A stretch of DNA of 64,000 nt. Origin: Polyangia bacterium (lineage in GTDB: Bacteria; Myxococcota_A; Polyangia; Nannocystales; Nannocystaceae). The stretch spans positions 147,599 to 211,598 of the forward strand of contig JAUIFF010000001.1 in the NCBI GenBank assembly GCA_030429545.1, given 5' to 3'. A program made the translations under genes and the position numbers. Positions 1 to 12,097 of the stretch are shown one piece after another. Every line of letters starts with the position of its first letter. Position 1 is the first letter of the stretch. The notes beneath the pieces are model-generated. The model searched no databases. It was not told the DNA's origin and was given only the letters and a program-made list of their open reading frames with translations.

Positions 1-886
1 TAAGGCGGGTGCGATCGGCAAAGCCAAACGGGTCGACCGGGCGCAAAAACAGGGCCTTGCATCCCAGGTTGACATATGTATCAACAATTTCTTTCCACAG
101 TGGGAGCGTGGCCTTGGTGGTCGTCATGAGGGCCTCGCAGTGGTACAGCGTGGTGTCGAGACCCATCTCTTCGTAGGCTTGGTTGATCCGCTTGATCCAA
201 AACACGGCCTTTTGAAACGCATCCATGGTCGCCAACTTGCGCTGGGCGTTGTGGAGTTTTTCGGGGCCATCGATGCTTGTACAAATTTGTACGCGGTTTT
301 CGAGCAGGTACTGCAACTTCTCCTCAGTCATGAGCGAGAGGTTGGAGACCATCGTGAACTCGAGGTTCTTGCCCAGCGATTTATTTTTCTCGCGGGCGTA
401 CTCGATGATGTGTTTGACCACCTCAAAGTTAACTAGCGGCTCGCCGCCCTGGAACTCGATGGTGACAAACGGATTGGTCGTCGACAGGGCGATGTCCACC
501 GACTTCTCGGCGATTTCCGGCGTCATGTCGGTGTGGACCGCATCCATGTTGGCCCGCGAGGCGTGGCAGTAGATGCAGGTCTCGTTGCAGCGCAGGGTGA
601 CCACCATGACGTGGAGGTTGGGACCGGCGTGCAAAAAGTGTTTGCGGGCCTGCATACGGGCAACGGCATCGGCCACCCGGTAGGTTTTGCGGACAAAGTT
701 CTTGGCGTCGAGCCGCTTGTAGAGCTCGCTCTCCTCCTCGACATCACCCTCGGCGTAGCGCTTAAACTCCTCCTGGGTGAGCAACAAGAAGTTGCCCTCA
801 AAGTTGGTAATGAGGATTTTGTCGGCCACCTGGCGATAGCGAAAAAACGCCTGGAAACTGGTGCTGGGCTTTAATTGGGCGAGCAT
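1..886 (-). CDS. Radical SAM peptide/protein maturase, partial (C-terminus cut by the window edge)
   Basis: Minus-strand ORF from ATG at 886 running off the window start, so absent from the ORF track. Hand translation MLAQLKPSTSFQAFFRYRQVADKILITNFEGNFLLLTQEEFKRYAEGD...LHVMVVTLRCNETCIYCHASRANMD...EFQGGEPLVNF. CNETCIYC is a CX3CX2C radical-SAM 4Fe-4S motif and GGEPL is a SAM-binding motif. Its start ATG overlaps the stop of the upstream 74-aa ORF (TAATG). Confidence 0.75.
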   Translation of the reverse strand, partial: MLAQLKPSTSFQAFFRYRQVADKILITNFEGNFLLLTQEEFKRYAEGDVEEESELYKRLDAKNFVRKTYRVADAVARMQARKHFLHAGPNLHVMVVTLRCNETCIYCHASRANMDAVHTDMTPEIAEKSVDIALSTTNPFVTIEFQGGEPLVNFEVVKHIIEYAREKNKSLGKNLEFTMVSNLSLMTEEKLQYLLENRVQICTSIDGPEKLHNAQRKLATMDAFQKAVFWIKRINQAYEEMGLDTTLYHCEALMTTTKATLPLWKEIVDTYVNLGCKALFLRPVDPFGFADRTRL

Positions 887-1110
887 TAGCTAGCTCCTCC
901 GCGCTGGATCGTGAGCCCTAGGGCGTAGTTGCAAAACTCGTTGCGCAGGCGGTCGGCCATCTGCGGACTTTTGCTGATGAGCTCGACAACCCAGGCATCG
1001 TCCTCTTGTTTGAGCTCGAACGCTGCGAAGTTCGAGAACGCCTTGACGGCCTCGTCGAGCGCTTCGCCGGCGTACACCTGTTTGTCAAACCGCAGGGTCT
1101 GCGCACTCAC
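886..1110 (-). CDS. Small protein (74 aa) translationally coupled to the radical SAM gene; possible HxsD-like partner
   Basis: ORF 886..1110(-). Its stop overlaps the rSAM start and its start overlaps the upstream gene's stop (ATGA-type). Good GC3 bias. Motif LRNEFCNYAL loosely resembles the LLNDYxLRE signature of the His-Xaa-Ser system protein HxsD; this is a weak match. Confidence 0.5.
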   Translation of the reverse strand: MSAQTLRFDKQVYAGEALDEAVKAFSNFAAFELKQEDDAWVVELISKSPQMADRLRNEFCNYALGLTIQRGGAS

Positions 1111-1607
1111 GATGCTGCCCCTTCGTTGGAAGCCTCGGGCTCATCTTGCTTCTGCACTTTCTTGCCGTGCTTGTCCTCCCACGACTGGGCGATGCCCAAC
1201 GGGTCGTCGAAGGCCTCGTCGGAGAAGTCAAACGAGGCGAGGTCGTCGAGCGAGGGCTCGCCCATCGCCCCGGCAATCGCTTGCATGGTGACGGTTTCGA
1301 TGATGGTGCGGTTGTCCTGGGTGATTTGGTGACGCCACGCGCACGAGAGCAACTCGTTGGCAAACTCGCCGACAAGCGCACGCAGGGCCTCGGCCTCGGG
1401 GGCGGCATCTTTGGCCGAGAGGGTGACACGAAAAACCTTGTCGTCGGGCCGATCGATGAACACGTAACACCGGTCGATAAAAATGTAGGATGCGCCGTAC
1501 AGCGCCTGGAGCGGGTAAACCTCAGCGTCGAGGTTGATGCTCACCCGGCCCGCACCGAGCTCGGCTTGGAGGATGCCTTGGGGAATATCCGAAAGTTGTG
1601 TGCCCAT
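1107..1607 (-). CDS. Hypothetical acidic protein, first gene of the rSAM operon
   Basis: ORF 1107..1700(-). The track start at 1700 is a TTG; the first ATG (MGTQLSDIPQGIL...) is at 1607. Strong GC3 codon bias. Acidic C-terminal tail (DDLASFDFSDEAFDDPLG...EPEASNEGAAS). No recognisable domain. Confidence 0.5.
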   Translation of the reverse strand: MGTQLSDIPQGILQAELGAGRVSINLDAEVYPLQALYGASYIFIDRCYVFIDRPDDKVFRVTLSAKDAAPEAEALRALVGEFANELLSCAWRHQITQDNRTIIETVTMQAIAGAMGEPSLDDLASFDFSDEAFDDPLGIAQSWEDKHGKKVQKQDEPEASNEGAAS

Positions 1608-1856
1608 CGATTGTGATCCTGCTGCTGCAGCCGTCCGAGCGAACCCGGGCAGCCGGGGTGCCGGATGGTAACAGGAATCCCGCGGGAGACCCCGTCCCAA
1701 TCAGTGTGCCCCAGGGAATTCTCCGCCCGGTGCAAGCCGGTTTTATCAACCGTGCAGTCGATCTTTACGGTTGGGTGACATGGGTCAGTGGCCGTTTCGA
1801 GATCTTGGCCTAGGCTTGATCGTGAGGAGGTTAGGGGCCGCGCCCCGGATGTATAG

Positions 1857-2474
1857 ATGTTTCGCCAGCCAGCCCAAGCGATCACTTCATACCGCGTCGA
1901 CACCTCGCTCGATGAGCGTCAACGCGAGCTCGCCGACCGCCTTTTAACGGCGGCCAACGAGGCTATTGGACTGGCGATCCTCACCCTCGAAGATGGTTCA
2001 AACGAAGATCTCAGTCGCAGTGAGCGGCACGAGCGGGCAGCGACCGCCCGTCAGTTCTTGGTCGAAGCTGTCACCGCGCTTTCGCGAGCTCGGGTGCTGA
2101 TCCCCGCTGTTCGGACCTATACGGTGGCGGTCATCACCACCGCCGAAACCTCGATCGATGCCGAGCTCGGTCGTCTCCACCAGCTCGCCGTACGGATGCT
2201 GTGGCACAACCACAACCTGTTTCCCAAGCGCATACGCGGTGATCTCAATGCCGAAGACGAGGCCCAGTTGGCCGTTTTTTGCAATGCTCTTGCCCGCAAC
2301 GCCCGGATCGACCGCTTGATGGAGTACCGCTGGATCGTGATTTCGGTAGTGCTCGCTGGGCTCGGCCCGCTGCTCGGAGCACCTTTAATCAGTGCCTACA
2401 TGTTTGTTGTCGCAACTGGCCTGACTGCGGTTCATCTCGCGCGAGCTGCTCGGCGTGCTGCCACGTTCGGGTAA
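1857..2474 (+). CDS. Hypothetical protein with C-terminal transmembrane segment
   Basis: 205-aa ORF with good codon bias and a C-terminal hydrophobic stretch (WIVISVVLAGLGPLLGAPLISAYMFVVATGLTAV). Divergent from the rSAM operon. Confidence 0.45.
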   Translation: MFRQPAQAITSYRVDTSLDERQRELADRLLTAANEAIGLAILTLEDGSNEDLSRSERHERAATARQFLVEAVTALSRARVLIPAVRTYTVAVITTAETSIDAELGRLHQLAVRMLWHNHNLFPKRIRGDLNAEDEAQLAVFCNALARNARIDRLMEYRWIVISVVLAGLGPLLGAPLISAYMFVVATGLTAVHLARAARRAATFG

Positions 2475-2529
2475 GCACTCGGCGCTTTGCACCCGAAGGT
2501 CGTTTAAGTCGAGGACGACCGCGAGCTTG

Positions 2530-2725
2530 GGCTACTCCTCTTTGGGGAATCAACCAGCTTCGTCGGGCACTGTGCGCATCGGTCGAACTCAAGCTGTCGG
2601 CCGAACGCGCATCACCCAGCCCTTCGTCGGGCACAGTCGGACGACCGCACGTGGGCCACTCCTCGTTGGGGGAATCAACCAGCCCTTCGCCGGGCACAAA
2701 CTCGAGCTGTCGGGCGCGGGCGACT
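2530..2725. repeat. Intergenic imperfect direct repeats (~65 bp, 2 copies plus a partial third) between convergent genes downstream of parB
   Basis: ctcctctttggggaatcaaccagcttcgtcgggcac...tcgaactcaagctgtcggccg at ~2536 recurs as ctcctcgttgggggaatcaaccagcccttcgccgggcac...ctcgagctgtcgggcg at ~2661. A shorter tcacccagcccttcgtcgggcac copy lies at ~2612. Confidence 0.6.
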
Positions 2726-3632
2726 AGTGCCCAGGCTGCAAAAACACATTGAGCAGGCGTTCTAGCTCGTCGAGGCTTTGATACGGAACCTCGATCTTGC
2801 CGGCGCCCTTGCGCGCGCGATTTGGTTTGAGAGCAACCTTGACTCCGAGCGAGCGTCGCAGCCGTTGCTCGAGGTCGCGAACAATGACATCGCGGCGGCG
2901 TTGCTCTGGATCGACTTCGGCTTCGGGCTCATCTTCGGCTTCCCACGAGCGGACGGCAGCCTCCACGGCCCGAACACTCAGGCGGTTGCGGATCGCCTCG
3001 TGGGCGAGATCGATCATGTCTCCCTGGTCGGAAAGGCCGAGTAGGGCACGGGCATGCCCCATCGAAAGCGCACCCTCTACCACCAGGTCTTGGACCTGTT
3101 GCGGCAGCTTGAGCAGGCGTAATGCATTGCTGACGGTGCTGCGGTCCTTGCCGAGCCGGGTGGCGAGTTGCTCGTGGGTGTAGCCCGCGAGGTCCATCAG
3201 CCCCTCGAACGCTCGGGCTTCTTCAATCGGATTGAGATCCTCGCGCTGCAGGTTTTCGACAATCGCAAGCTCTAGGCGCTCCTGCTCAGATGAGTCACGG
3301 ACAATCACTGGGACTTCGTGCAGTCCGGCGAGGCCGGCCGCCCGCCAGCGGCGTTCGCCGGCAATGATCTGATAGTTGCCGGTGTCGAGCGGGGTGACCA
3401 CGAGCGGTTGAATGATCCCGTGTTGCTTGATGCTTTCGGCAAGGTCGTGCAGGGCTTCGGGCGAAAACACCTTGCGCGGTTGTTCGCGGTTTGGCGCGAG
3501 GCTTTCGATCGGCAGTTGCCGCAGCCCCGAGCGCGGGTGCGAAGCGGGCACGGGAGTGGGCTCTTCGGCCTGTTTTTGGGGCAATAGGGCCCCGAGGCCA
3601 CGGCCTAGCGGACGTCGTTTGGGAGTGCTCAC
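2724..3632 (-). CDS. parB: Chromosome partitioning protein ParB
   Basis: 302 aa. N-terminal RRPLGRGLGALL, GERRWRAA box and HTH region, all typical of chromosomal ParB/Spo0J. Overlaps the parA stop (operon). Confidence 0.92.
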   Translation of the reverse strand: MSTPKRRPLGRGLGALLPQKQAEEPTPVPASHPRSGLRQLPIESLAPNREQPRKVFSPEALHDLAESIKQHGIIQPLVVTPLDTGNYQIIAGERRWRAAGLAGLHEVPVIVRDSSEQERLELAIVENLQREDLNPIEEARAFEGLMDLAGYTHEQLATRLGKDRSTVSNALRLLKLPQQVQDLVVEGALSMGHARALLGLSDQGDMIDLAHEAIRNRLSVRAVEAAVRSWEAEDEPEAEVDPEQRRRDVIVRDLEQRLRRSLGVKVALKPNRARKGAGKIEVPYQSLDELERLLNVFLQPGH

Positions 3633-4453
3633 GCAGTCGCCCTTTCTTCGATACGGGTCAAAAGTTCGTGGGCAAGGTCGAGGTAGGCTTGAGCTCCCTT
3701 ACTCTCGACATCGTACAAAAGTGCCGGTTTGCCGTGGCTCGGGCTTTCGCTCAAGCGGATGTTTTGCGGGATCCGGGTGGCGAACGCGTATTGCGGAAAG
3801 TGCTCGGCAACCTCGGCAACCACACTCTGGGCGAGGTTGGTCCGGCGGTCGAACATACAAAACACGATCCCCTCGATGTGAAGACGTGGGTTGAGGGCTT
3901 CGCGAACCGCAGCGATGGTGTTGTGCAAGGCACTGAGCCCCTCGAGCGAAAAGTAGCGGGCCAACATCGGTATGAGGACGCGATCAGAGGCGACCAAACC
4001 GTTTAAAGTGAGTAGCCCCAACGACGGCGGGCAGTCGATAAAGACAAATCGATATTGCTTTGCCGCGATCGCCCGGGCGAGCGCCCGCGACAGGCGTGTT
4101 TCGCGGTGTTCGGCCTCGACCAACTCGATTTCGGCCCCGATCAAATCAGGCGACGCGGGCACGAGGTGGAGTTCGGGCAGTTCGGTCGGCAGGGTGACCG
4201 CTTCGAGGGAGGCCTCGCCAAGGAGCAATTCGTAGGTTCCGCGCTCTACCTGTTCACGCGGGTAGCCCAGCGACGACGACGCGTTGCCCTGTGGATCGAG
4301 ATCGACCAGCAATACCGGAAACTCGGCGGCAGCGAGACTCGCAGCGAGGTTGACCGCGGTCGTCGTTTTCCCAACACCACCCTTTTGGTTGCTGACCGCG
4401 AGGACAGTCGTTGGGTGTGTCGTCGATGCACAAGCCTCCGGCACAGCGGGCAT
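3629..4453 (-). CDS. parA: Chromosome partitioning ATPase ParA/Soj
   Basis: 274 aa. Deviant Walker A KGGVGKTT, typical ParA length. Immediately upstream of parB with a 4-nt overlap. Confidence 0.92.
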   Translation of the reverse strand: MPAVPEACASTTHPTTVLAVSNQKGGVGKTTTAVNLAASLAAAEFPVLLVDLDPQGNASSSLGYPREQVERGTYELLLGEASLEAVTLPTELPELHLVPASPDLIGAEIELVEAEHRETRLSRALARAIAAKQYRFVFIDCPPSLGLLTLNGLVASDRVLIPMLARYFSLEGLSALHNTIAAVREALNPRLHIEGIVFCMFDRRTNLAQSVVAEVAEHFPQYAFATRIPQNIRLSESPSHGKPALLYDVESKGAQAYLDLAHELLTRIEERATA

Positions 4454-4608
4454 TCCTTACCACAACGGATCGCACGGTTCGTCCCAGGAAGTGGCCGATT
4501 CGAACTGGCGATCAAAAGTCGGTAGGTTTTTTGCCTACATGTCGGATGATCAATTACATCCTCTTTATCGATACCGCGTGGGTGTCGAACAGGAGTCAGG
4601 AGACAGAC

Positions 4609-4773
4609 ATGAGTTACTTCCGTACGCGTTTTCGCAGCTTCGAAGAGTTCCAACGCGAGGTCAGCTACCACCGTGAAGAGCTTGGCAAAGACGAGCTCGA
4701 GCTGTTGCGCGAGCTCGAGGATGAAGACAACTTTGACCGCCGCCCGCGTCAAGCTCGCGCCTACTGGGAGTAA
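4609..4773 (+). CDS. Putative small protein (54 aa) on the opposite strand within the parA upstream region
   Basis: ATG at 4609 preceded by aggagtcaggagacagac (strong RBS). Charged sequence MSYFRTRFRSFEEFQREVSYHREELGKDELELLRELEDEDNFDRRPRQARAYWE with GC3 ~70%. Confidence 0.4.
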   Translation: MSYFRTRFRSFEEFQREVSYHREELGKDELELLRELEDEDNFDRRPRQARAYWE

Positions 4774-4777
4774 CCGA

Positions 4778-6184
4778 TTAGCTGCCGGGTGTGGGTTCGG
4801 CGAACGCCCACGAACTCGGCAGGTCGGGATCTTGTGGCGAGCGCACCACTGCCTGTTCGGTGTGGAGCGGATTGGGCTCAGCCGACGGATCCTCCCATTG
4901 CCGGTAGGTCGAATGCGGTTGGCCCTCGGGGTCGAGTAGCACCACCGGCTCGGTCGAAGTCAGGCCGCCATCGGCAAGCGTCGTATCGTCGGTCTCGAGC
5001 ACCAGGGCATCGCCGCCAACACCCTGGTATGCGTTGCCCACCAGCAGCGCGACATGTCCCGGCGCGAGGCATGTCTGGGGCTGACACCCGCCGTCACCTG
5101 CACGGTACAAAAGCGGATCTGTGCCCGGAGCATCGTCGACAAGACTGTCGGCGATTTGCCAATTTTGCAGGTCAACTTCTACATCGGAAGTATTGATCAA
5201 CTCGATGAACTCATAATGTTTTTCCTGTGAGCCCGAGCCCTCCGGATTGGCCAACACTTCGCGGATCACAAGTGCGCCGGGAGGCGTTGGTTCAAGCTCT
5301 CCTTCGGTCATTTCGCCCTCGGTTGTCTCGCTCTCACCGGTTGTTTCAGAGTCGGTCTCGCCTGGCTCCGGCAGCGAAACTTCGCCGGGCGATGGTGGGC
5401 ATGCGAGCCAATCGGCCGCGGAGTTGGTGTCGATGTCAAACGGAACGCGGCAGATCGAGTTGCCGCTTTCGGGGGTTTTTGCGGCCGGCATGGCAAAGTC
5501 ATCTTTGTTGGCAAAAGGTGGCGGTTGCGGACCGCCGTAGACCACCGCATCGATCACCTCCTCGGTTGCGCTATCGGCCACAAGCACCGCTCCGTCGGCG
5601 TTTCGCAACCCTGAACTCGCGGCGAAAGCGAGCTCCACGCCAGCGTCGCCCAGGACGATCGCCGGGTCGGGGAGGGCGGCGGCTTCAAACCTCTGCACCA
5701 CGACTGTCTGCCCCGGGTCGAGTTTGAGATCGCCCCAGCCGAGTTCGTCAAAGTCGAGCGTTGGCCACGTGCGCGCCTGGAGTTGAAGCCCGCCAAGTTC
5801 GATCGGTGTGTTGCCGGTGTGGACCAGCTCGACAAACTCCGGTGCTCCCGGGCCGCCGTCTTTGCCCTCGGGATTGCTGTGGACTTCGGTGAGCAGCAAC
5901 CATTGCAAGTCGGGGTTTGGCTCGGGCTTAGGCGTCGGATGCGGGCCTGTCGGAGCGGGCGGTGTCCACTGCTTGTCGGGGGGTTGGAGGTTGGGACCGC
6001 CGGTGGACGGGCCAGGGAGATCTGGCCATGAAGGCGTGTCGAACGGACCGGCGATACCGGTCGTGGTGTCGGCAGGCAGCGATGGGTCGGAACTGCAAGC
6101 GGCCGTTGCGGGAAAGCTCATCAACGTGCCGAGTCCGAGTTGCAGGAACAAAAGGGTTGTGGGTCGAGACACAGGGGTCATGAC
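4778..6184 (-). CDS. Secreted lipoprotein with two lamin-tail (LTD) domains
   Basis: Start refined to MTPVSRPTTLLFLQLGLGTLMSFPATAAC (signal peptide, lipobox Cys). Two LTD-like segments: LLLTEVHSNPEGKDGGPGAPEFVELVHTGNTPIELGGLQL and LVIREVLANPEGSGSQEKHYEFIELINTSDVEVDLQNWQIAD. Pro/Thr/Glu-rich linkers. Confidence 0.7.
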   Translation of the reverse strand, partial: VMTPVSRPTTLLFLQLGLGTLMSFPATAACSSDPSLPADTTTGIAGPFDTPSWPDLPGPSTGGPNLQPPDKQWTPPAPTGPHPTPKPEPNPDLQWLLLTEVHSNPEGKDGGPGAPEFVELVHTGNTPIELGGLQLQARTWPTLDFDELGWGDLKLDPGQTVVVQRFEAAALPDPAIVLGDAGVELAFAASSGLRNADGAVLVADSATEEVIDAVVYGGPQPPPFANKDDFAMPAAKTPESGNSICRVPFDIDTNSAADWLACPPSPGEVSLPEPGETDSETTGESETTEGEMTEGELEPTPPGALVIREVLANPEGSGSQEKHYEFIELINTSDVEVDLQNWQIADSLVDDAPGTDPLLYRAGDGGCQPQTCLAPGHVALLVGNAYQGVGGDALVLETDDTTLADGGLTSTEPVVLLDPEGQPHSTYRQWEDPSAEPNPLHTEQAVVRSPQDPDLPSSWAFAEPTPGS

Positions 6185-6326
6185 CGCACCCCATCGGTCG
6201 CGCGCGCGAGTTGTTGCACCCACACTCAAATCAATTGAGCGCGAGCACATGCGTGATTTGAGCAACTTCGCGTGAAATGTCGGTTGTTGACAGGTCCAGC
6301 GCCAGTGTTACCGTTGCGCCGAACTT

Positions 6327-8738
6327 GTGACTGATAACGTCTCACATTCCGCACCCCCCTCAGACTCTGAACCCGTTGAACTGCCTCCGGAACTTTCCCT
6401 GCTTCCGCTGCGCAACTCGGTTTTATTTCCCGGCTCGATCATCCCTATCGATGTGGGCCGGCCCAAGTCGGTCCGCCTGATCGAAGAGGCCATCGCCAAC
6501 GAACGGCCGATCATCGGGATCGTCGCCCAAAAGGAAGCCCGCGTCGAAAACCCCTCGCGCGACGACCTGTTCAGCGTTGGCTGTGCAGCTCGGATCCTCA
6601 AGGTCATCAAGCTGGCGAAGGATAACTACAGCGTCATCCTCCAGGGGGTCGCCCGGATCCAGCTCGACGAACTCGTCGCCGAGGAGCCGTTTTTACAGGC
6701 TCGAGTCACAGAGATTCCCGACATCCATGTCGACCGCGCCGAGTCCGAGGCTCTCGTCCTCAACATCAAAGACACGGCCAAACGCCTGATCGCCCTGGTC
6801 CCCGAGCTTCCCCGCGAAGCTGCGGCTCTGATCGACAGCGTGTCCGACCCGAGCCAGGTCGCCGACCTCGTCATCAGCAACCTCGACATCGAGACCAGCG
6901 AAAAGCAGGACGTTTTAGAGTCGAACCACGTCAACGAACGCCTGCGTCAGGTGTTGACGCTGCTCACCCGGCAACTCGAGATTCTCAAAGTCCGCGAGCG
7001 GATCAACTCCCAGGTCCAGGAGGAGATGGGCCACAGCCAACGCGAGTATGTGCTGCGGCAACAACTCAAAGCCATCAAGGGCGAGCTCGGTGAGATCGAC
7101 GAAGATGGTGGTGACGTCGAGGAGTTCGACCGCCGGATCAAAGAGGCCAAGATGCCCGAGGAGGCAGAGCGGGCCGCTCGCAAGCAGCTCGACCGGCTCA
7201 AGTCGATGCAGCCTTCGAGTGCCGAGTACACGGTGACCCGCACCTACTTAGAATGGCTCACCGACTTGCCGTGGTCGATCTCTACTGAAGATCAGTTGGA
7301 GATCCAGACCGTTCGCGATGTCCTCAACGAAGACCACTACGACCTCGAAAAGGTCAAAAAGCGGATCCTCGAGTACATGGCGGTGCTCAAGCTCAACGCC
7401 TCAAAAAAGGGTCCGATCCTGTGTTTGCTCGGCCCGCCCGGCGTCGGCAAGACCTCGCTCGGCAAAAGCATTGCTCGGGCGATCGGCCGCAAGTTTGTCC
7501 GGATCTCCCTCGGTGGCGTGCGCGACGAGGCCGAGATTCGCGGTCACCGGCGGACCTACGTTGGTTCGTTGCCCGGCCGCATTGTTCAGGGGCTCAAAAA
7601 AGCCGGCACCAACAACCCGGTGATCATGCTCGACGAGATCGACAAACTCGGGCACGATTTTCGCGGCGACCCGGGTGCGGCACTTCTCGAAGTTTTAGAC
7701 CCCGAGCAAAACCACACGTTCAGCGACCACTACCTCGAAGTCACGTTTGACCTCTCGCGGGTGATGTTTATCGCCACCGCCAACTACCTCGATCCGATTC
7801 CGCCGGCCCTCAAGGACCGTTTGGAAATCCTCGAGTTGCCCGGCTACACCCGCCAGGAAAAGCTGGCGATCGCCCGCCGGTTTTTGTTGCCTAAGCAAAT
7901 ATCGGAACACGGACTGCTCGATCACAGCGTCGAAGTTACGTTTGCCGACGAAGCCCTGTTGGAGCTGATCGACAGCTACACCCACGAGGCTGGCGTTCGC
8001 AACTTAGAGCGCGAGATAAGCTCAGTGATCCGCGGGATCGCGGTCAAGGTTGTCGAGGGCGAAGTCGGTAAGCAGATCGCGGTCGTCCGCGACGACATCC
8101 CCGGCTACCTCGGTCCGCAAAAATACCTCTCGGAGATGGCCGAACGGACAGCCGAACCTGGGGTTGCCACTGGACTTGCGTGGACACCCGTCGGCGGCGA
8201 GATCATGTTTGTCGAGGCCACCCACATGCCGGGCAAGGGCGGCTTGATGCTCACCGGACAACTCGGCGACGTCATGAAAGAGTCGGCCCAGGCGGCGATG
8301 AGCTACGTCAAGAGTCGGCACGCCCAACTCGGCATCGAGCACAGCCAGATCGAGGGCCACGACATCCATGTCCACGTGCCAGCGGGTGGGATCCCCAAAG
8401 ATGGTCCGTCTGCCGGTGTGGCGATGTTCTCGGCGATCGTTTCGCTACTCACCAAAACCTGCATCCTCCCCGATGTCGCCATGACCGGCGAAATCACCCT
8501 GCGTGGTCTCGTGCTACCGGTTGGCGGGATCAAAGAAAAGATGCTGGCGGCCCACCGTGCCGGTATCAAGCACATCGTGCTCCCCGAGCGAAATGCCAAG
8601 GACGTTGTCGACGTACCCGAGGAGATCCGCGAGGAGATGCAAATCAGCTACGTCAAGAACGTCAACGAGGTGCTCGACAAGGTGCTCGACCGCGGCTCGT
8701 CTGAACAGGCGTCGAAACCGGCCGAATCGGCGGATTGA
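6327..8738 (+). CDS. lon: ATP-dependent Lon protease
   Basis: 803 aa. N-terminal LON domain (LPLLPLRNSVLFPGSIIPIDVGR), AAA+ Walker A GPPGVGKTS, C-terminal protease domain with the catalytic PKDGPSAG serine motif. Confidence 0.95.
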   Translation: MTDNVSHSAPPSDSEPVELPPELSLLPLRNSVLFPGSIIPIDVGRPKSVRLIEEAIANERPIIGIVAQKEARVENPSRDDLFSVGCAARILKVIKLAKDNYSVILQGVARIQLDELVAEEPFLQARVTEIPDIHVDRAESEALVLNIKDTAKRLIALVPELPREAAALIDSVSDPSQVADLVISNLDIETSEKQDVLESNHVNERLRQVLTLLTRQLEILKVRERINSQVQEEMGHSQREYVLRQQLKAIKGELGEIDEDGGDVEEFDRRIKEAKMPEEAERAARKQLDRLKSMQPSSAEYTVTRTYLEWLTDLPWSISTEDQLEIQTVRDVLNEDHYDLEKVKKRILEYMAVLKLNASKKGPILCLLGPPGVGKTSLGKSIARAIGRKFVRISLGGVRDEAEIRGHRRTYVGSLPGRIVQGLKKAGTNNPVIMLDEIDKLGHDFRGDPGAALLEVLDPEQNHTFSDHYLEVTFDLSRVMFIATANYLDPIPPALKDRLEILELPGYTRQEKLAIARRFLLPKQISEHGLLDHSVEVTFADEALLELIDSYTHEAGVRNLEREISSVIRGIAVKVVEGEVGKQIAVVRDDIPGYLGPQKYLSEMAERTAEPGVATGLAWTPVGGEIMFVEATHMPGKGGLMLTGQLGDVMKESAQAAMSYVKSRHAQLGIEHSQIEGHDIHVHVPAGGIPKDGPSAGVAMFSAIVSLLTKTCILPDVAMTGEITLRGLVLPVGGIKEKMLAAHRAGIKHIVLPERNAKDVVDVPEEIREEMQISYVKNVNEVLDKVLDRGSSEQASKPAESAD

Positions 8739-9024: not shown

Positions 9025-10944
<1,920 letters not shown>

Positions 10945-10965
10945 CCCGCCCACGGGTTTGAAACG

Positions 10966-10990
10966 GGCCGGCACCAAGCCGGCCTTTTTC
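10966..10990 (+). terminator. Rho-independent terminator of dnaK
   Basis: GGCCGGC-accaa-GCCGGCC hairpin followed by TTTTT, 22 nt after the dnaK stop. Confidence 0.75.
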
Positions 10991-11285
10991 ATTGGTTCGG
11001 CGCGATACATTTAAGTTGTTCATACATATAATATAGATGTTGATACATGTATGATTCGTAGGTGTGGGCAAAATTGAACGTCGATCGAGCCTTGGTAGGC
11101 GCGCGCACCAAAAATTGGCGGGCCCCCTTGCTTCCCGGCGACAACTTCCCTAAGCTTCCTGTGGGCGCGCAGGGGTGCCCAACCCGCCAGAAGATGGATT
11201 CACCCTGCTTGTTTGTTACGGTTGTTCGTCATTGCAACCACTTCTCGGCCGAGATTGTGCGGGGCCAGGTCGATGGGGATGTGCG

Positions 11286-11813
11286 ATGAACGATGCAATT
11301 TCAGAGTTAAAAATTCGTGCCCGTATGCTGCATAAACGGGTGCAATCTGGTGATACCGCGGCCCTCGAACGGGTCCGTCGTGGGCAACAGCTCACGCCCG
11401 ATACGGTCCAACACAAACACTGCCTCGCGGCAGTGGCCCGCGAGAATGGGTTTCGCAGCTGGCAGCATGCAACCCGCGTGGTTCGTGGTGATGTCGGTGA
11501 GCAGGACTTTGGCAAGTTGCTGGTGCCTGGCCATTGCGGTGGGTTTTTAAACGAGTGGTTCGCCGACTACGACCAGGCGCTGGCCGCCAAACAGGCGAAT
11601 AATCGCTTCTTGTTGGCGTATCAGCGGCACTTTGTGGTGGTCACGGCCGACTTTATCCGCGCGCTCGGGCTCGATCCAAACGACCCGGATTGGCGGCGAA
11701 TCAACCGTAATTGGGTGCAACCAGGGGATGTGCGTGCCCGCGAACGCCTCTACGGGCGCTTGCTTGGCCAGCGGGCCAACGGCGCTCCGGCGAACACACA
11801 ACCGGACTGTTAA
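11286..11813 (+). CDS. Hypothetical protein
   Basis: Track ORF 11175..11813. Start refined to ATG 11286 (MNDAISELKIRARMLHKRV...). Good codon bias, no recognisable domain. Confidence 0.45.
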   Translation: MNDAISELKIRARMLHKRVQSGDTAALERVRRGQQLTPDTVQHKHCLAAVARENGFRSWQHATRVVRGDVGEQDFGKLLVPGHCGGFLNEWFADYDQALAAKQANNRFLLAYQRHFVVVTADFIRALGLDPNDPDWRRINRNWVQPGDVRARERLYGRLLGQRANGAPANTQPDC

Positions 11814-12097
11814 GCCATGTTGGGTGACGGACACCGATACAAGGTGTCCGCCCCTCGGGTGGCGTTGCCAACCGGTTCGCTCTCGGAGGCCTCCATAAAT
11901 CGCGAACAAGGGGCTTGATTGGTCGACGCGCCAACGGCTCCAGGCGAATGCAAGGTCAGTCTGTTGAGCCTTGTGTTAGCGACGGACACCAGCGCGAATG
12001 CTGCCTGGTGTCCGTCGACTGGGGCGGTGGTTATGGCAGTGGCTAGTGTTTGACTTTGTCAACGAGCTGGCAGTTGCTGGAATATCTGCCCTTGCTC

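What the first reader, a model, noticed from the sequence alone, without database searches (positions are those of the whole stretch)
1..1700. Translationally coupled three-gene operon: acidic 167-aa protein, 74-aa protein, radical-SAM maturase (truncated at the window edge)
The radical SAM enzyme (CNETCIYC cluster motif) starts on a TAATG overlap with a 74-aa protein, which itself overlaps (ATGA) a 167-aa acidic protein. Such tight coupling of small proteins to an rSAM enzyme is the hallmark of peptide-modification (RiPP-like) or rSAM-pair systems such as the His-Xaa-Ser (HxsABCD) system. The 74-aa protein has a weak LRNEFCNYAL match to the HxsD signature, but no His-Xaa-Ser repeat precursor is visible in the window. 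It may lie beyond the left edge, or this may be a different, undescribed rSAM system.
Basis: partly seen in the sequence, partly recalled or inferred. Interest (0 to 1): 0.5.

Follow-up and report, generated by a model that had tools for sequence, protein, structure and literature searches.

The report
Myxobacterial His-Xaa-Ser (Hxs) operon start

Summary
On the minus strand lie three coupled genes: a 166-aa acidic protein (1607..1107), a 74-aa protein (1110..886) and a radical-SAM gene cut at base 1 (886..1).

Curated NCBIfam models identify all three. The 166-aa protein is HxsD (71.8 bits, cutoff 50). The 74-aa protein is "HxsD-like" (80 bits, cutoff 41). The enzyme is HxsB (323 bits on the fragment; 569 on the full 499-aa protein, cutoff 370).

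A metagenome contig 100% identical to window 1-7458 extends past the edge. It shows the rest of hxsB and, about 420 nt on, a precursor ORF: a 60-aa leader, then HCS-HGS-HGS..., matching HxsA4. A contig from the same sample starts in that repeat (...HGSW-stop) and carries HxsC4 (620 bits, cutoff 500) and a P450.

The order D, D-like, B, A4 recurs in most of 80 Myxococcota genome loci.

This is the NCBIfam "type 4" Hxs system. It differs from the E. coli antiphage HXS system: no signal peptide, no peptidoglycan-binding domain, 9-21 perfect HGS repeats ending in Trp, and a different gene order. Its chemistry and role are untested. Identity is near certain. Novelty is low.

The parts
1107..1607 (-). 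hxsD: 166-aa acidic protein (ATG 1607, stop TGA 1109..1107), first gene of the operon
   Evidence: NCBIfam TIGR03976 (HxsD) scores 71.8 bits against a cutoff of 50, over residues 26-115. Precomputed Pfam hit is PF27806 HxsD. Close homologues are named 'His-Xaa-Ser system protein HxsD' by NCBI, JGI and UniRef. The AF2 model has pLDDT above 90 in the core, with a beta-alpha-beta-beta-alpha topology.
1164..1271 (-). Conserved acidic C-terminal extension of HxsD (residues 113-148, GAMGEPSLDDLASFDFSDEAFDDPLGIAQSWEDKHG), lying beyond the TIGR03976 domain
   Evidence: These residues are invariant or nearly so across 48 homologues that share only 59-91% identity overall. AF2 confidence is low here (pLDDT 55-76), which is compatible with a docking segment that orders on binding. 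That reading is inference.
886..1110 (-). hxsD-like gene: 74-aa protein (GTG 1110, stop TAA 888..886), a paralogue of HxsD
   Evidence: NCBIfam NF038315 'HxsD-like protein' scores 80 bits against a cutoff of 41. It cross-hits TIGR03976 at E=6.5e-4. hhalign of the two families gives E=4.9e-4 over the whole domain. The AF2 model has pLDDT 91 and the same beta-alpha-beta-beta-alpha topology as HxsD. A 73%-identical homologue is named 'HxsD-like protein' by NCBI.
1..886 (-). hxsB, 5' 295 of 499 codons: radical SAM/SPASM maturase, cut by the window edge
   Evidence: TIGR03978 (HxsB) scores 323 bits on the fragment, over profile positions 2-279 of 466. The full-length protein from the contigs that extend the window scores 569 bits against a cutoff of 370 (L002 is 100% identical in DNA to window 1-7458).
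566..589 (-). CxxxCxxC radical-SAM [4Fe-4S] cluster motif (CNETCIYC, HxsB residues 100-107)
   Evidence: Read directly from the sequence. Pfam PF04055 covers residues 94-232.
1107..1110 (-). GTGA overlap: hxsD stop with hxsD-like start (translational coupling)
   Evidence: Read directly from the sequence.
884..888 (-). TAATG overlap: hxsD-like stop with hxsB start (translational coupling)
   Evidence: Read directly from the sequence.
1608..1856 (.). Divergent intergenic region upstream of hxsD, the presumed operon promoter region. An AGGA lies 11 nt before the ATG.
   Evidence: Inference from gene arrangement. No sigma-70 consensus match was found. The upstream sequence is shown.

Best explanation
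Window 1-1607 (minus strand) holds the first three genes of a 'type 4' His-Xaa-Ser operon from a Nannocystaceae-like myxobacterium. The full order is hxsD, hxsD-like, hxsB, then (beyond the left edge) hxsA4, hxsC4 and a P450 gene.

HxsA4 is a ribosomal precursor of roughly 100 aa. It has a conserved, hydrophilic leader of about 50-65 aa and a core HCS-(HGS)n-W.

Proposed mechanism:
- The radical SAM/SPASM enzyme HxsB and the second radical-SAM enzyme HxsC4 covalently modify the His-Xaa-Ser repeats of HxsA4.
- HxsD and its short paralogue are small adaptor proteins (beta-alpha-beta-beta-alpha, Pcc1/Rpb11-like fold). They bind the rSAM enzymes and/or present the substrate, possibly one per enzyme or as a heterodimer.

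Shown here: the identities of all components, the gene order, the precursor sequence, and conservation across Myxococcota.

Inferred: that the repeats are the modification sites and that HxsD proteins partner the enzymes. Both rest on analogy with the E. coli HXS system, where HxsB, HxsC and HxsD are all needed for HxsA processing, a +8 Da change maps to an SHRSS repeat, and HxsC pulls down HxsD (PMC13128918).

The role of the mature product is open. I favour a leader-dependent, RiPP-like modified His-rich peptide over a peptidoglycan-anchored antiphage effector.
For: - Family assignment: HxsD 71.8 bits (cutoff 50), HxsD-like 80 (cutoff 41), HxsB fragment 323 and full-length 569 (cutoff 370).
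- Extension: L002 is 100% identical to window 1-7458 and continues 1.3 kb further.
- Precursor: that extension contains an ORF MAKSDGK...GPGDSGHCSHGSHGS... on the same strand. It hits HxsA4 NF038313 at 49 bits as a truncated fragment, and 67.7-89.8 bits in full-length orthologues (cutoff 55).
- Far side of the repeat: contig L090 from the same sample begins ...SHGSHGSHGSHGSW-stop. It then encodes HxsC4 (620 bits, cutoff 500) and a P450.
- Same contig: the HxsC4 protein and the window's HxsD and HxsD-like proteins all report the same 1,548,822-bp longest NCBI contig.
- Conservation: D, D-like, B, A4 recur in most of 80 Myxococcota loci. An HxsC4 orthologue (60-82% identity) sits directly after A4 or, where no precursor was seen, after B in about 25 of them.
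- Precursor design: 45 distinct precursors share a leader motif and a near-perfect HCS(HGS)9-21 core; every complete one ends in Trp-stop.
- Paralogy of the D proteins: both fold as beta-alpha-beta-beta-alpha and are weakly homologous.
- Experimental precedent for the pathway logic: PMC13128918.
Against: - No experiment exists for the type 4 system. No paper in the searched library mentions HxsA4 or HxsC4.
- HxsC4 fails the classical HxsC model (85-88 bits against a cutoff of 268), so its chemistry may differ.
- The Xaa position is Gly. The E. coli modified motif SHRSS and its basic residues have no counterpart here.
- The exact source genome could not be read across the repeat. Continuity of L002 and L090 is inferred from shared sample, matching repeat ends and a shared contig length.
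- No leader peptidase or exporter is seen next to the operon.
- Fold matches of HxsD and HxsD-like are weak (Foldseek E about 1e-2).
- Some related loci show HxsB without a detectable repeat precursor within 8 kb.
Confidence: 0.85

Rival explanations
1. It is an antiphage HXS defence system working as in E. coli. [quoted passage not shown]
For: HxsB and HxsD are orthologous by curated models. A His-Xaa-Ser repeat substrate and a second rSAM enzyme are present. The E. coli system is experimentally an antiphage system (PMC13128918).
Against: - HxsA4 has no signal-peptide-like hydrophobic segment (maximum Kyte-Doolittle 15-residue window 0.86).
- It has no peptidoglycan-binding domain and is only about 80-135 aa, against 214 aa in E. 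coli (PMC13128918).
- Its repeats are HGS, without the basic residues invoked for DNA binding.
- The gene order is D, D', B, A4, C4. In the paper's survey, 99.6% of systems are D-B-C-A and 99.7% of HxsA-bearing systems are in Pseudomonadota.
- The operon is found in many families of Myxococcota and here sits next to parAB, not in a recognisable defence island.
- There are no specific PADLOC hits, although that database predates the paper.
Confidence: 0.2
2. It is a RiPP-type biosynthetic cluster for a released, multiply cross-linked or otherwise modified His-rich peptide, for example a metal-binding or bioactive product. Each H-G-S triplet would be one modification unit, in the manner of three-residue-motif rSAM/SPASM maturases.
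For: - Leader-plus-repetitive-core precursor design with a conserved leader motif and a conserved C-terminal Trp.
- HxsB's next-best matches are RiPP maturases: CcpM, PapB, SCIFF and QhpD-type.
- Variable tailoring and transport genes occur in relatives: P450; an rSAM-methyltransferase fusion, a further rSAM, an aKG-HExxH peptide hydroxylase and an MFS transporter in Plesiocystis pacifica.
- There is precedent for rSAM enzymes cross-linking His in three-residue motifs (HtkB/HaaB, PMC11499958) and for repeat-wise modification (TVG, PMC9062424).
Against: No leader protease or ABC exporter lies next to the operon in this organism. The accessory genes are not conserved across loci. No product is known. 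The only measured Hxs modification (+8 Da) is not a simple -2 Da cross-link.
Confidence: 0.45
3. It is an undescribed rSAM system, or a conventional rSAM enzyme (anSME, HemN-like) with two unrelated small ORFs.
For: Pfam-A as installed gives only generic Radical_SAM/Fer4_12 hits for the enzyme and nothing significant for the small proteins.
Against: All three proteins match specific curated NCBIfam models, the two complete ones above their cut-offs and the truncated HxsB above cut-off once read full-length. anSME models reach only 57-74 bits against cut-offs of 349-441. A newer Pfam family, PF27806 HxsD, hits the 166-aa protein.
Confidence: 0.02

Closest known systems
NCBIfam 'type 4' His-Xaa-Ser set: HxsA4 (NF038313), HxsC4 (NF038332), HxsD-like (NF038315), together with HxsB (TIGR03978) and HxsD (TIGR03976). 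These names are used by NCBI in Enhygromyxa salina, Sandaracinus amylolyticus, Pseudenhygromyxa sp. WMMC2535 and Nannocystaceae bacterium ST9.
   Same: Every component passes the corresponding curated cut-off or, where the sequence is truncated, scores in proportion. The gene order and precursor design are the same as in most of 80 Myxococcota loci. Homologues carry these names in NCBI and UniRef.
   Different: Nothing material. This is a further member from an uncultured Nannocystaceae-like genome. The family itself is defined only bioinformatically.
E. coli HXS antiphage system HxsD-HxsB-HxsC-HxsA (Li et al., Nat Commun 2026, PMC13128918)
   Same: HxsB and HxsD are orthologous by model. There is a second rSAM enzyme. 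The substrate carries tandem His-Xaa-Ser repeats. The genes form a tightly linked operon.
   Different: - The precursor is short (about 100 aa), without signal peptide or peptidoglycan-binding domain.
- It has 9-21 perfect HGS repeats plus a terminal Trp, instead of five basic-residue-rich repeats.
- HxsC4 fails the HxsC model (85 bits against a cutoff of 268).
- There is an extra HxsD paralogue, and HxsD carries a conserved acidic tail.
- The order is D, D', B, A, C rather than D-B-C-A.
- It occurs in Myxococcota rather than Pseudomonadota.
rSAM/SPASM RiPP maturases acting on short repeated motifs: three-residue cyclophane synthases including the His-linking HtkB/HaaB (PMC11499958), and TvgB poly-cyclopropylglycine (PMC9062424)
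   Same: A SPASM-type rSAM enzyme with an N-terminal extension, a leader-core precursor, and a core made of repeated three-residue units that begin with an aromatic or His residue.
   Different: HxsB is a separate family (YhhB, AmcB and GrrM models score only 34-49 bits). It needs HxsD-type partners. The chemistry is unknown, and the one measured Hxs modification is +8 Da, not -2 Da.

Membership tests
His-Xaa-Ser (Hxs) system, general (TIGR03976-03979; Haft & Basu 2011, as cited in PMC9062424) | HxsB-family radical SAM/SPASM maturase (TIGR03978, cutoff 370 bits) | tested here: met
   The window fragment scores 323 bits over profile positions 2-279 of 466. The full-length protein from the contigs that extend the window scores 569 bits.
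His-Xaa-Ser (Hxs) system, general | HxsD small protein (TIGR03976, cutoff 50 bits) | tested here: met
   The 166-aa protein scores 71.8 bits. The LLNDYxLRE-region equivalent is EFANELLSCAWRH.
His-Xaa-Ser (Hxs) system, general | Adjacent protein with tandem His-Xaa-Ser repeats (HxsA) | tested here: met
   It lies outside the window, on the 100%-identical contig L002 and on L001 and L003. The sequence is HCS followed by at least 8 HGS, where the contigs end. The other end of the repeat is on L090.
His-Xaa-Ser (Hxs) system, general | Second radical-SAM enzyme of the HxsC family (TIGR03977, cutoff 267.9 bits) | tested here: not met
   The downstream rSAM (P0248 and the L007 orthologue) scores only 85-88 bits on TIGR03977. 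It belongs to the separate HxsC4 model.
Type 4 Hxs subsystem (NCBIfam HxsA4 / HxsC4 / HxsD-like) | HxsD-like protein (NF038315, cutoff 41 bits) | tested here: met
   The 74-aa protein scores 80 bits.
Type 4 Hxs subsystem (NCBIfam HxsA4 / HxsC4 / HxsD-like) | HxsA4 precursor (NF038313, cutoff 55 bits) | tested here: inconclusive
   The 88-aa fragment from this genome scores 49 bits because it is truncated within the repeat. Full-length orthologues score 67.7 (L015) and 89.8 (L007). The leader aligns with 44 other HxsA4 sequences.
Type 4 Hxs subsystem (NCBIfam HxsA4 / HxsC4 / HxsD-like) | HxsC4 radical SAM protein (NF038332, cutoff 500 bits) | tested here: met
   P0248 scores 620 bits. It is encoded on L090, from the same sample as the window-identical contig. 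It reports the same 1,548,822-bp longest contig as the window's HxsD and HxsD-like proteins.
E. coli-type antiphage HXS system (PMC13128918) | HxsA effector with signal peptide, peptidoglycan-binding domain and five basic-residue-rich HxS repeats | tested here: not met
   The leader is hydrophilic (maximum KD15 0.86). The precursor is 80-135 aa and consists of leader plus HGS repeats plus Trp only.
E. coli-type antiphage HXS system (PMC13128918) | Gene order HxsD-HxsB-HxsC-HxsA (99.6% of systems surveyed) | tested here: not met
   The order here is D, D-like, B, A4, C4.
E. coli-type antiphage HXS system (PMC13128918) | Confers phage resistance by blocking DNA entry | not testable with these tools
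   PADLOC v2.0.0 gives only generic viperin-like rSAM hits.
RiPP pathway with rSAM/SPASM maturase | Short precursor with a conserved leader and a modified core, encoded next to the maturase | tested here: met
   The leader motif LPxF..k....L...q.eisd.A is conserved, and the core is HCS(HGS)nW. It lies adjacent to HxsB. Modification itself was not tested.
RiPP pathway with rSAM/SPASM maturase | Leader peptidase and/or dedicated exporter in the cluster | tested here: not met
   Neither is seen within 10 kb downstream in this organism or upstream in the window. An MFS transporter is present only in Plesiocystis.

The most novel reading that the evidence does not exclude
The type 4 Hxs system is not a version of the E. 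coli periplasmic antiphage gatekeeper. It is a Myxococcota-wide, leader-dependent peptide-maturation pathway. In it, two rSAM enzymes modify every unit of a perfect (His-Gly-Ser)n-Trp polymer, for example by repeated His/Ser cross-links or the '+8 Da' chemistry. The product would be a new kind of modified His-rich peptide. The two HxsD paralogues would form a Pcc1/Rpb11-like heterodimer that bridges the enzymes through the invariant acidic tail of HxsD.
Probability: 0.4. Interest if true: 0.55.

Novelty: already known. Interest (0 to 1): 0.27.

Why it matters
As an annotation result it is routine. NCBI's pipeline already names these proteins.

The residual value is practical. The chemistry of Hxs maturation is unsolved. 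In E. coli, HxsA is insoluble when overexpressed alone and the reaction could not be reconstituted in vitro (PMC13128918).

The myxobacterial HxsA4 is a short, hydrophilic peptide whose core is 9-21 identical HGS units. It comes with its own HxsB, HxsC4 and two HxsD-type partners. That may make it a cleaner substrate for working out what HxsB and HxsC do to a His-Xaa-Ser motif. It may also show whether Hxs systems outside Pseudomonadota serve defence at all.

Tried and rejected
- Pfam-A (installed copy) gave only generic Radical_SAM/Fer4_12 hits, and a sub-threshold TacA1 hit for the 74-aa protein. It was uninformative and was superseded by NCBIfam.
- PADLOC gave only generic viperin-like rSAM similarity.
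- A sequence search of PDB for HxsD and HxsD-like found no meaningful relatives.
- Foldseek against PDB gave only weak Pcc1, Rpb11 and ferredoxin-like matches (E about 1e-2). I use this as a topology description only, not as homology. An RRE/PqqD-like fold was not recovered.
- Reading the source genome across the HGS repeat failed. Every short-read contig breaks in the repeat. An exact-match scan of JGI metagenomes with the leader DNA found nothing. The 1.55-Mb NCBI contig that carries these proteins is not retrievable with these tools.
- No alternative precursor was found in related loci that lack an HxS repeat.
- The sigma-70 promoter scan found nothing, and the two terminator-like sites are within what shuffles give. 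There are no Rfam or tRNA hits in the window.
- The window holds no HxsC4 homologue elsewhere.
- parAB adjacency as a conserved feature is rejected. It is seen only in the closest relative, L007.
Full report
**Observation**

The ORF list and raw sequence show three same-strand genes at the left end of the window, on the minus strand.
- A 166-aa protein: ATG 1607, stop TGA 1109..1107. It is acidic (pI 4.27).
- A 74-aa protein: GTG 1110, stop TAA 888..886.
- A radical-SAM ORF: ATG 886..884, running off the window at base 1 (295 codons). Its CNETCIYC motif is at 589..566.

The junctions are GTGA (1110..1107) and TAATG (888..884).

**Identity**

NCBIfam profile searches settle the identities.

| Protein | Model | Score (bits) | Cutoff (bits) |
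|---|---|---|---|
| 166-aa protein | HxsD, TIGR03976 | 71.8 | 50 |
| 74-aa protein | 'HxsD-like protein', NF038315 | 80 | 41 |
| Truncated enzyme | HxsB, TIGR03978 | 323 (profile positions 2-279 of 466) | 370 |
| Full-length enzyme | HxsB, TIGR03978 | 569 | 370 |

- The 74-aa protein also hits TIGR03976, but only weakly (E=6.5e-4).
- For the enzyme, the next-best family scores only 116 bits, and anSME models score 57 bits.
- The installed Pfam copy gave only generic rSAM hits. Precomputed annotation lists PF27806 HxsD for the 166-aa protein.

**Extension beyond the window edge**

Exact-protein look-ups returned short-read metagenome contigs.
- L002 is 100.000% identical to window 1-7458 at the DNA level and continues 1296 nt further. 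L001 and L003 are 98.5-99.6% identical.
- On these contigs HxsB is 499 aa and scores 569 bits (cutoff 370).
- About 420 nt downstream, on the same strand, starts an ORF: MAKSDGKATDDLNALPTFTRKGPVLSKGQREISDKARLYADAGPASMSLTTVMVGPGDSG-HCS-HGS-HGS-... It runs to the contig end.
- All three contigs break inside this repeat. The gene caller mis-called a short minus-strand ORF there.
- The fragment hits 'His-Xaa-Ser repeat protein HxsA4' (NF038313) at 49 bits, truncated, against a cutoff of 55.

**The far side of the repeat**

A homology search with the downstream rSAM of the nearest genome locus found a cluster whose member P0248 is carried on a 1,548,822-bp NCBI contig. That is the same longest-contig length reported for the window's own HxsD-like and HxsD proteins.
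- Its Logan contig L090 comes from ERR3428548, the same sample as L002.
- L090 begins ...SHGSHGSHGSHGSW-TAG.
- It then encodes a 342-aa rSAM that scores 620 bits on 'radical SAM protein HxsC4' (NF038332, cutoff 500) but only 85 bits on classical HxsC (cutoff 268).
- A cytochrome P450 follows.

The operon in this organism is therefore hxsD, hxsD-like, hxsB, hxsA4, hxsC4, (P450). Only the join across the repeat is unassembled.

**Comparative picture**

A scan of one genome per species found 80 loci encoding HxsB relatives at 48-94% identity. Every one whose record title names a lineage is from Myxococcota. They include the cultured Plesiocystis pacifica SIR-1, Paraliomyxa miuraensis, Polyangium fumosum, P. 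jinanense and Chondromyces apiculatus.
- tblastn and a repeat search show D, D-like, B, A4 in most loci.
- An HxsC4 orthologue (60-82% identity) lies directly after A4 or, where no precursor was detected, after B in about 25 loci.
- Elsewhere (Polyangium, Plesiocystis) other, more distant rSAM genes lie upstream. In Plesiocystis these are an rSAM-methyltransferase fusion, a second rSAM, an aKG-HExxH peptide hydroxylase and an MFS transporter.
- Forty-five distinct precursors share a conserved leader motif and a near-perfect core, (A/G)(Q/G)-HCS-(HGS)9-21. Every complete one ends in Trp-stop.
- NCBI, JGI and UniRef already name homologues HxsD, HxsD-like protein and HxsC4.

**The small proteins**

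- HxsD alignments show that the segment after the TIGR03976 domain (residues 113-148, strongly acidic) is almost invariant among homologues only 59-91% identical overall.
- AF2 models are confident for the HxsD core and for HxsD-like. HxsD has mean pLDDT 79, with the core above 90. HxsD-like has pLDDT 91.
- Both have a beta-alpha-beta-beta-alpha topology.
- Profile-profile comparison aligns the two over the whole domain (E=4.9e-4).
- Foldseek gives only weak matches to Pcc1, Rpb11 and ferredoxin-like modules. No RRE-like fold was found, and no sequence relative has a solved structure.

**What is known**

The only experimental study in the library (PMC13128918) shows that the E. coli HxsD-HxsB-HxsC-HxsA system is antiphage.
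- It is processed and carries a +8 Da modification on SHRSS. Its processing needs HxsB, HxsC and HxsD.
- HxsC binds HxsD.
- In the paper's survey, 99.7% of systems are in Pseudomonadota and 99.6% have the order D-B-C-A.
- No paper mentions HxsA4 or HxsC4.

The present system shares the B and D orthologues and the repeat-substrate logic. It fails the classical HxsC model, the HxsA architecture (no hydrophobic signal segment) and the gene order.

**Mechanism and rivals**

Best supported (0.85): this is the start of a type 4 Hxs maturation operon. HxsB and HxsC4 modify the HGS repeats of HxsA4, with HxsD and HxsD-like as enzyme or substrate adaptors.

The biological role is unresolved.
- I weight a RiPP-like modified His-rich peptide at about 0.45. 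The support is the leader-core design, variable tailoring genes, and RiPP-maturase-like HxsB.
- I weight an E. coli-like periplasmic antiphage effector at about 0.2.
- An undescribed or conventional rSAM reading is excluded.

**Verdict**

The system is already catalogued down to the subtype, so novelty is low. Interest is modest. It rests on HxsA4 being a potentially tractable substrate for solving Hxs chemistry.

Noticed in passing
L007:9750-11171 (uncultured Nannocystaceae MAG, HxsB 94% identical): Here hxsA4 is fused in frame to hxsC4, giving one 473-aa ORF of leader, 18 HxS units (HCS then HGS), Trp, a linker and the rSAM domain. Compared with the window organism (L090: TGG TAG CAG GTG GGT TAA), L007 reads TGG TCG CAG GTA GGC CAA. 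Both in-frame stops are replaced, which argues for a real substrate-enzyme fusion rather than a single sequencing error.
   Followed up: partly
L001:8717-8826, L002:8645-8754, L003:3201-3310; L090:1-50, L089:1-40: Every short-read contig ends or begins inside the HGS-repeat DNA. The gene caller placed a spurious 35-aa minus-strand ORF on it. As a result, HxsA4 precursors are likely to be missed or truncated in metagenome annotations.
   Followed up: yes
window 1164-1271 (-): The acidic C-terminal extension of HxsD (GEPSLDDLA.FDFSDEAFDDPLGIAQSWE.KHG) is more conserved than the HxsD domain itself across 48 homologues, and AF2 predicts it with low confidence. It lies outside the region matched by the 90-position TIGR03976 profile. 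It may be a docking motif.
   Followed up: partly
window 2724-4453 (-) and 1857-2474 (+): parB (302 aa) and parA (274 aa) lie immediately beside the operon. They are separated from it by a divergent 205-aa protein with a hydrophobic C-terminus and no family hit. This neighbourhood is shared only with the closest relative, L007.
   Followed up: partly
window 4778-6265 (-): A 495-aa ORF (called as 467 aa) carries lamin-tail-domain (PF00932 LTD) hits and Pro/Thr/Glu-rich linkers. It is unrelated to the finding.
   Followed up: no
L015:1825-7118 and 10757-12067 (Plesiocystis pacifica SIR-1): In this locus the Hxs core genes are flanked by a 688-aa rSAM-methyltransferase fusion, a 348-aa rSAM, an aKG-HExxH peptide beta-hydroxylase and an MFS transporter, in place of HxsC4. 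The accessory enzyme set of the type 4 system therefore varies between lineages.
   Followed up: partly
L033:6502-7236: Two tandem HxsA4 genes (16 and 13 repeats) lie upstream of hxsD instead of downstream of hxsB. This is a different gene order within the same family.
   Followed up: no
L090:1251-7086 (same sample as the window-identical contig): Downstream of hxsC4 lie a P450 (best NCBIfam hits are terpene- and RiPP-type P450s, all below cut-off), two unannotated genes, a MerR regulator and a ferredoxin-reductase-like protein (FAD_binding_6/NAD_binding_1/Fer2). The last could be a P450 redox partner. The P450 follows hxsC4 only in the closest relatives (L007, L008).
   Followed up: partly
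L011, L014, L017, L018, L020, L022 and others: Several loci have HxsB and HxsD, and some have HxsC4, but no detectable HxS-repeat ORF within 8 kb. The precursor may be elsewhere, collapsed in assembly, or absent.
   Followed up: partly
window 1-64000: There are no tRNA genes and no Rfam family at gathering threshold anywhere in the 64-kb window. G+C is 59.9%.
   Followed up: yes
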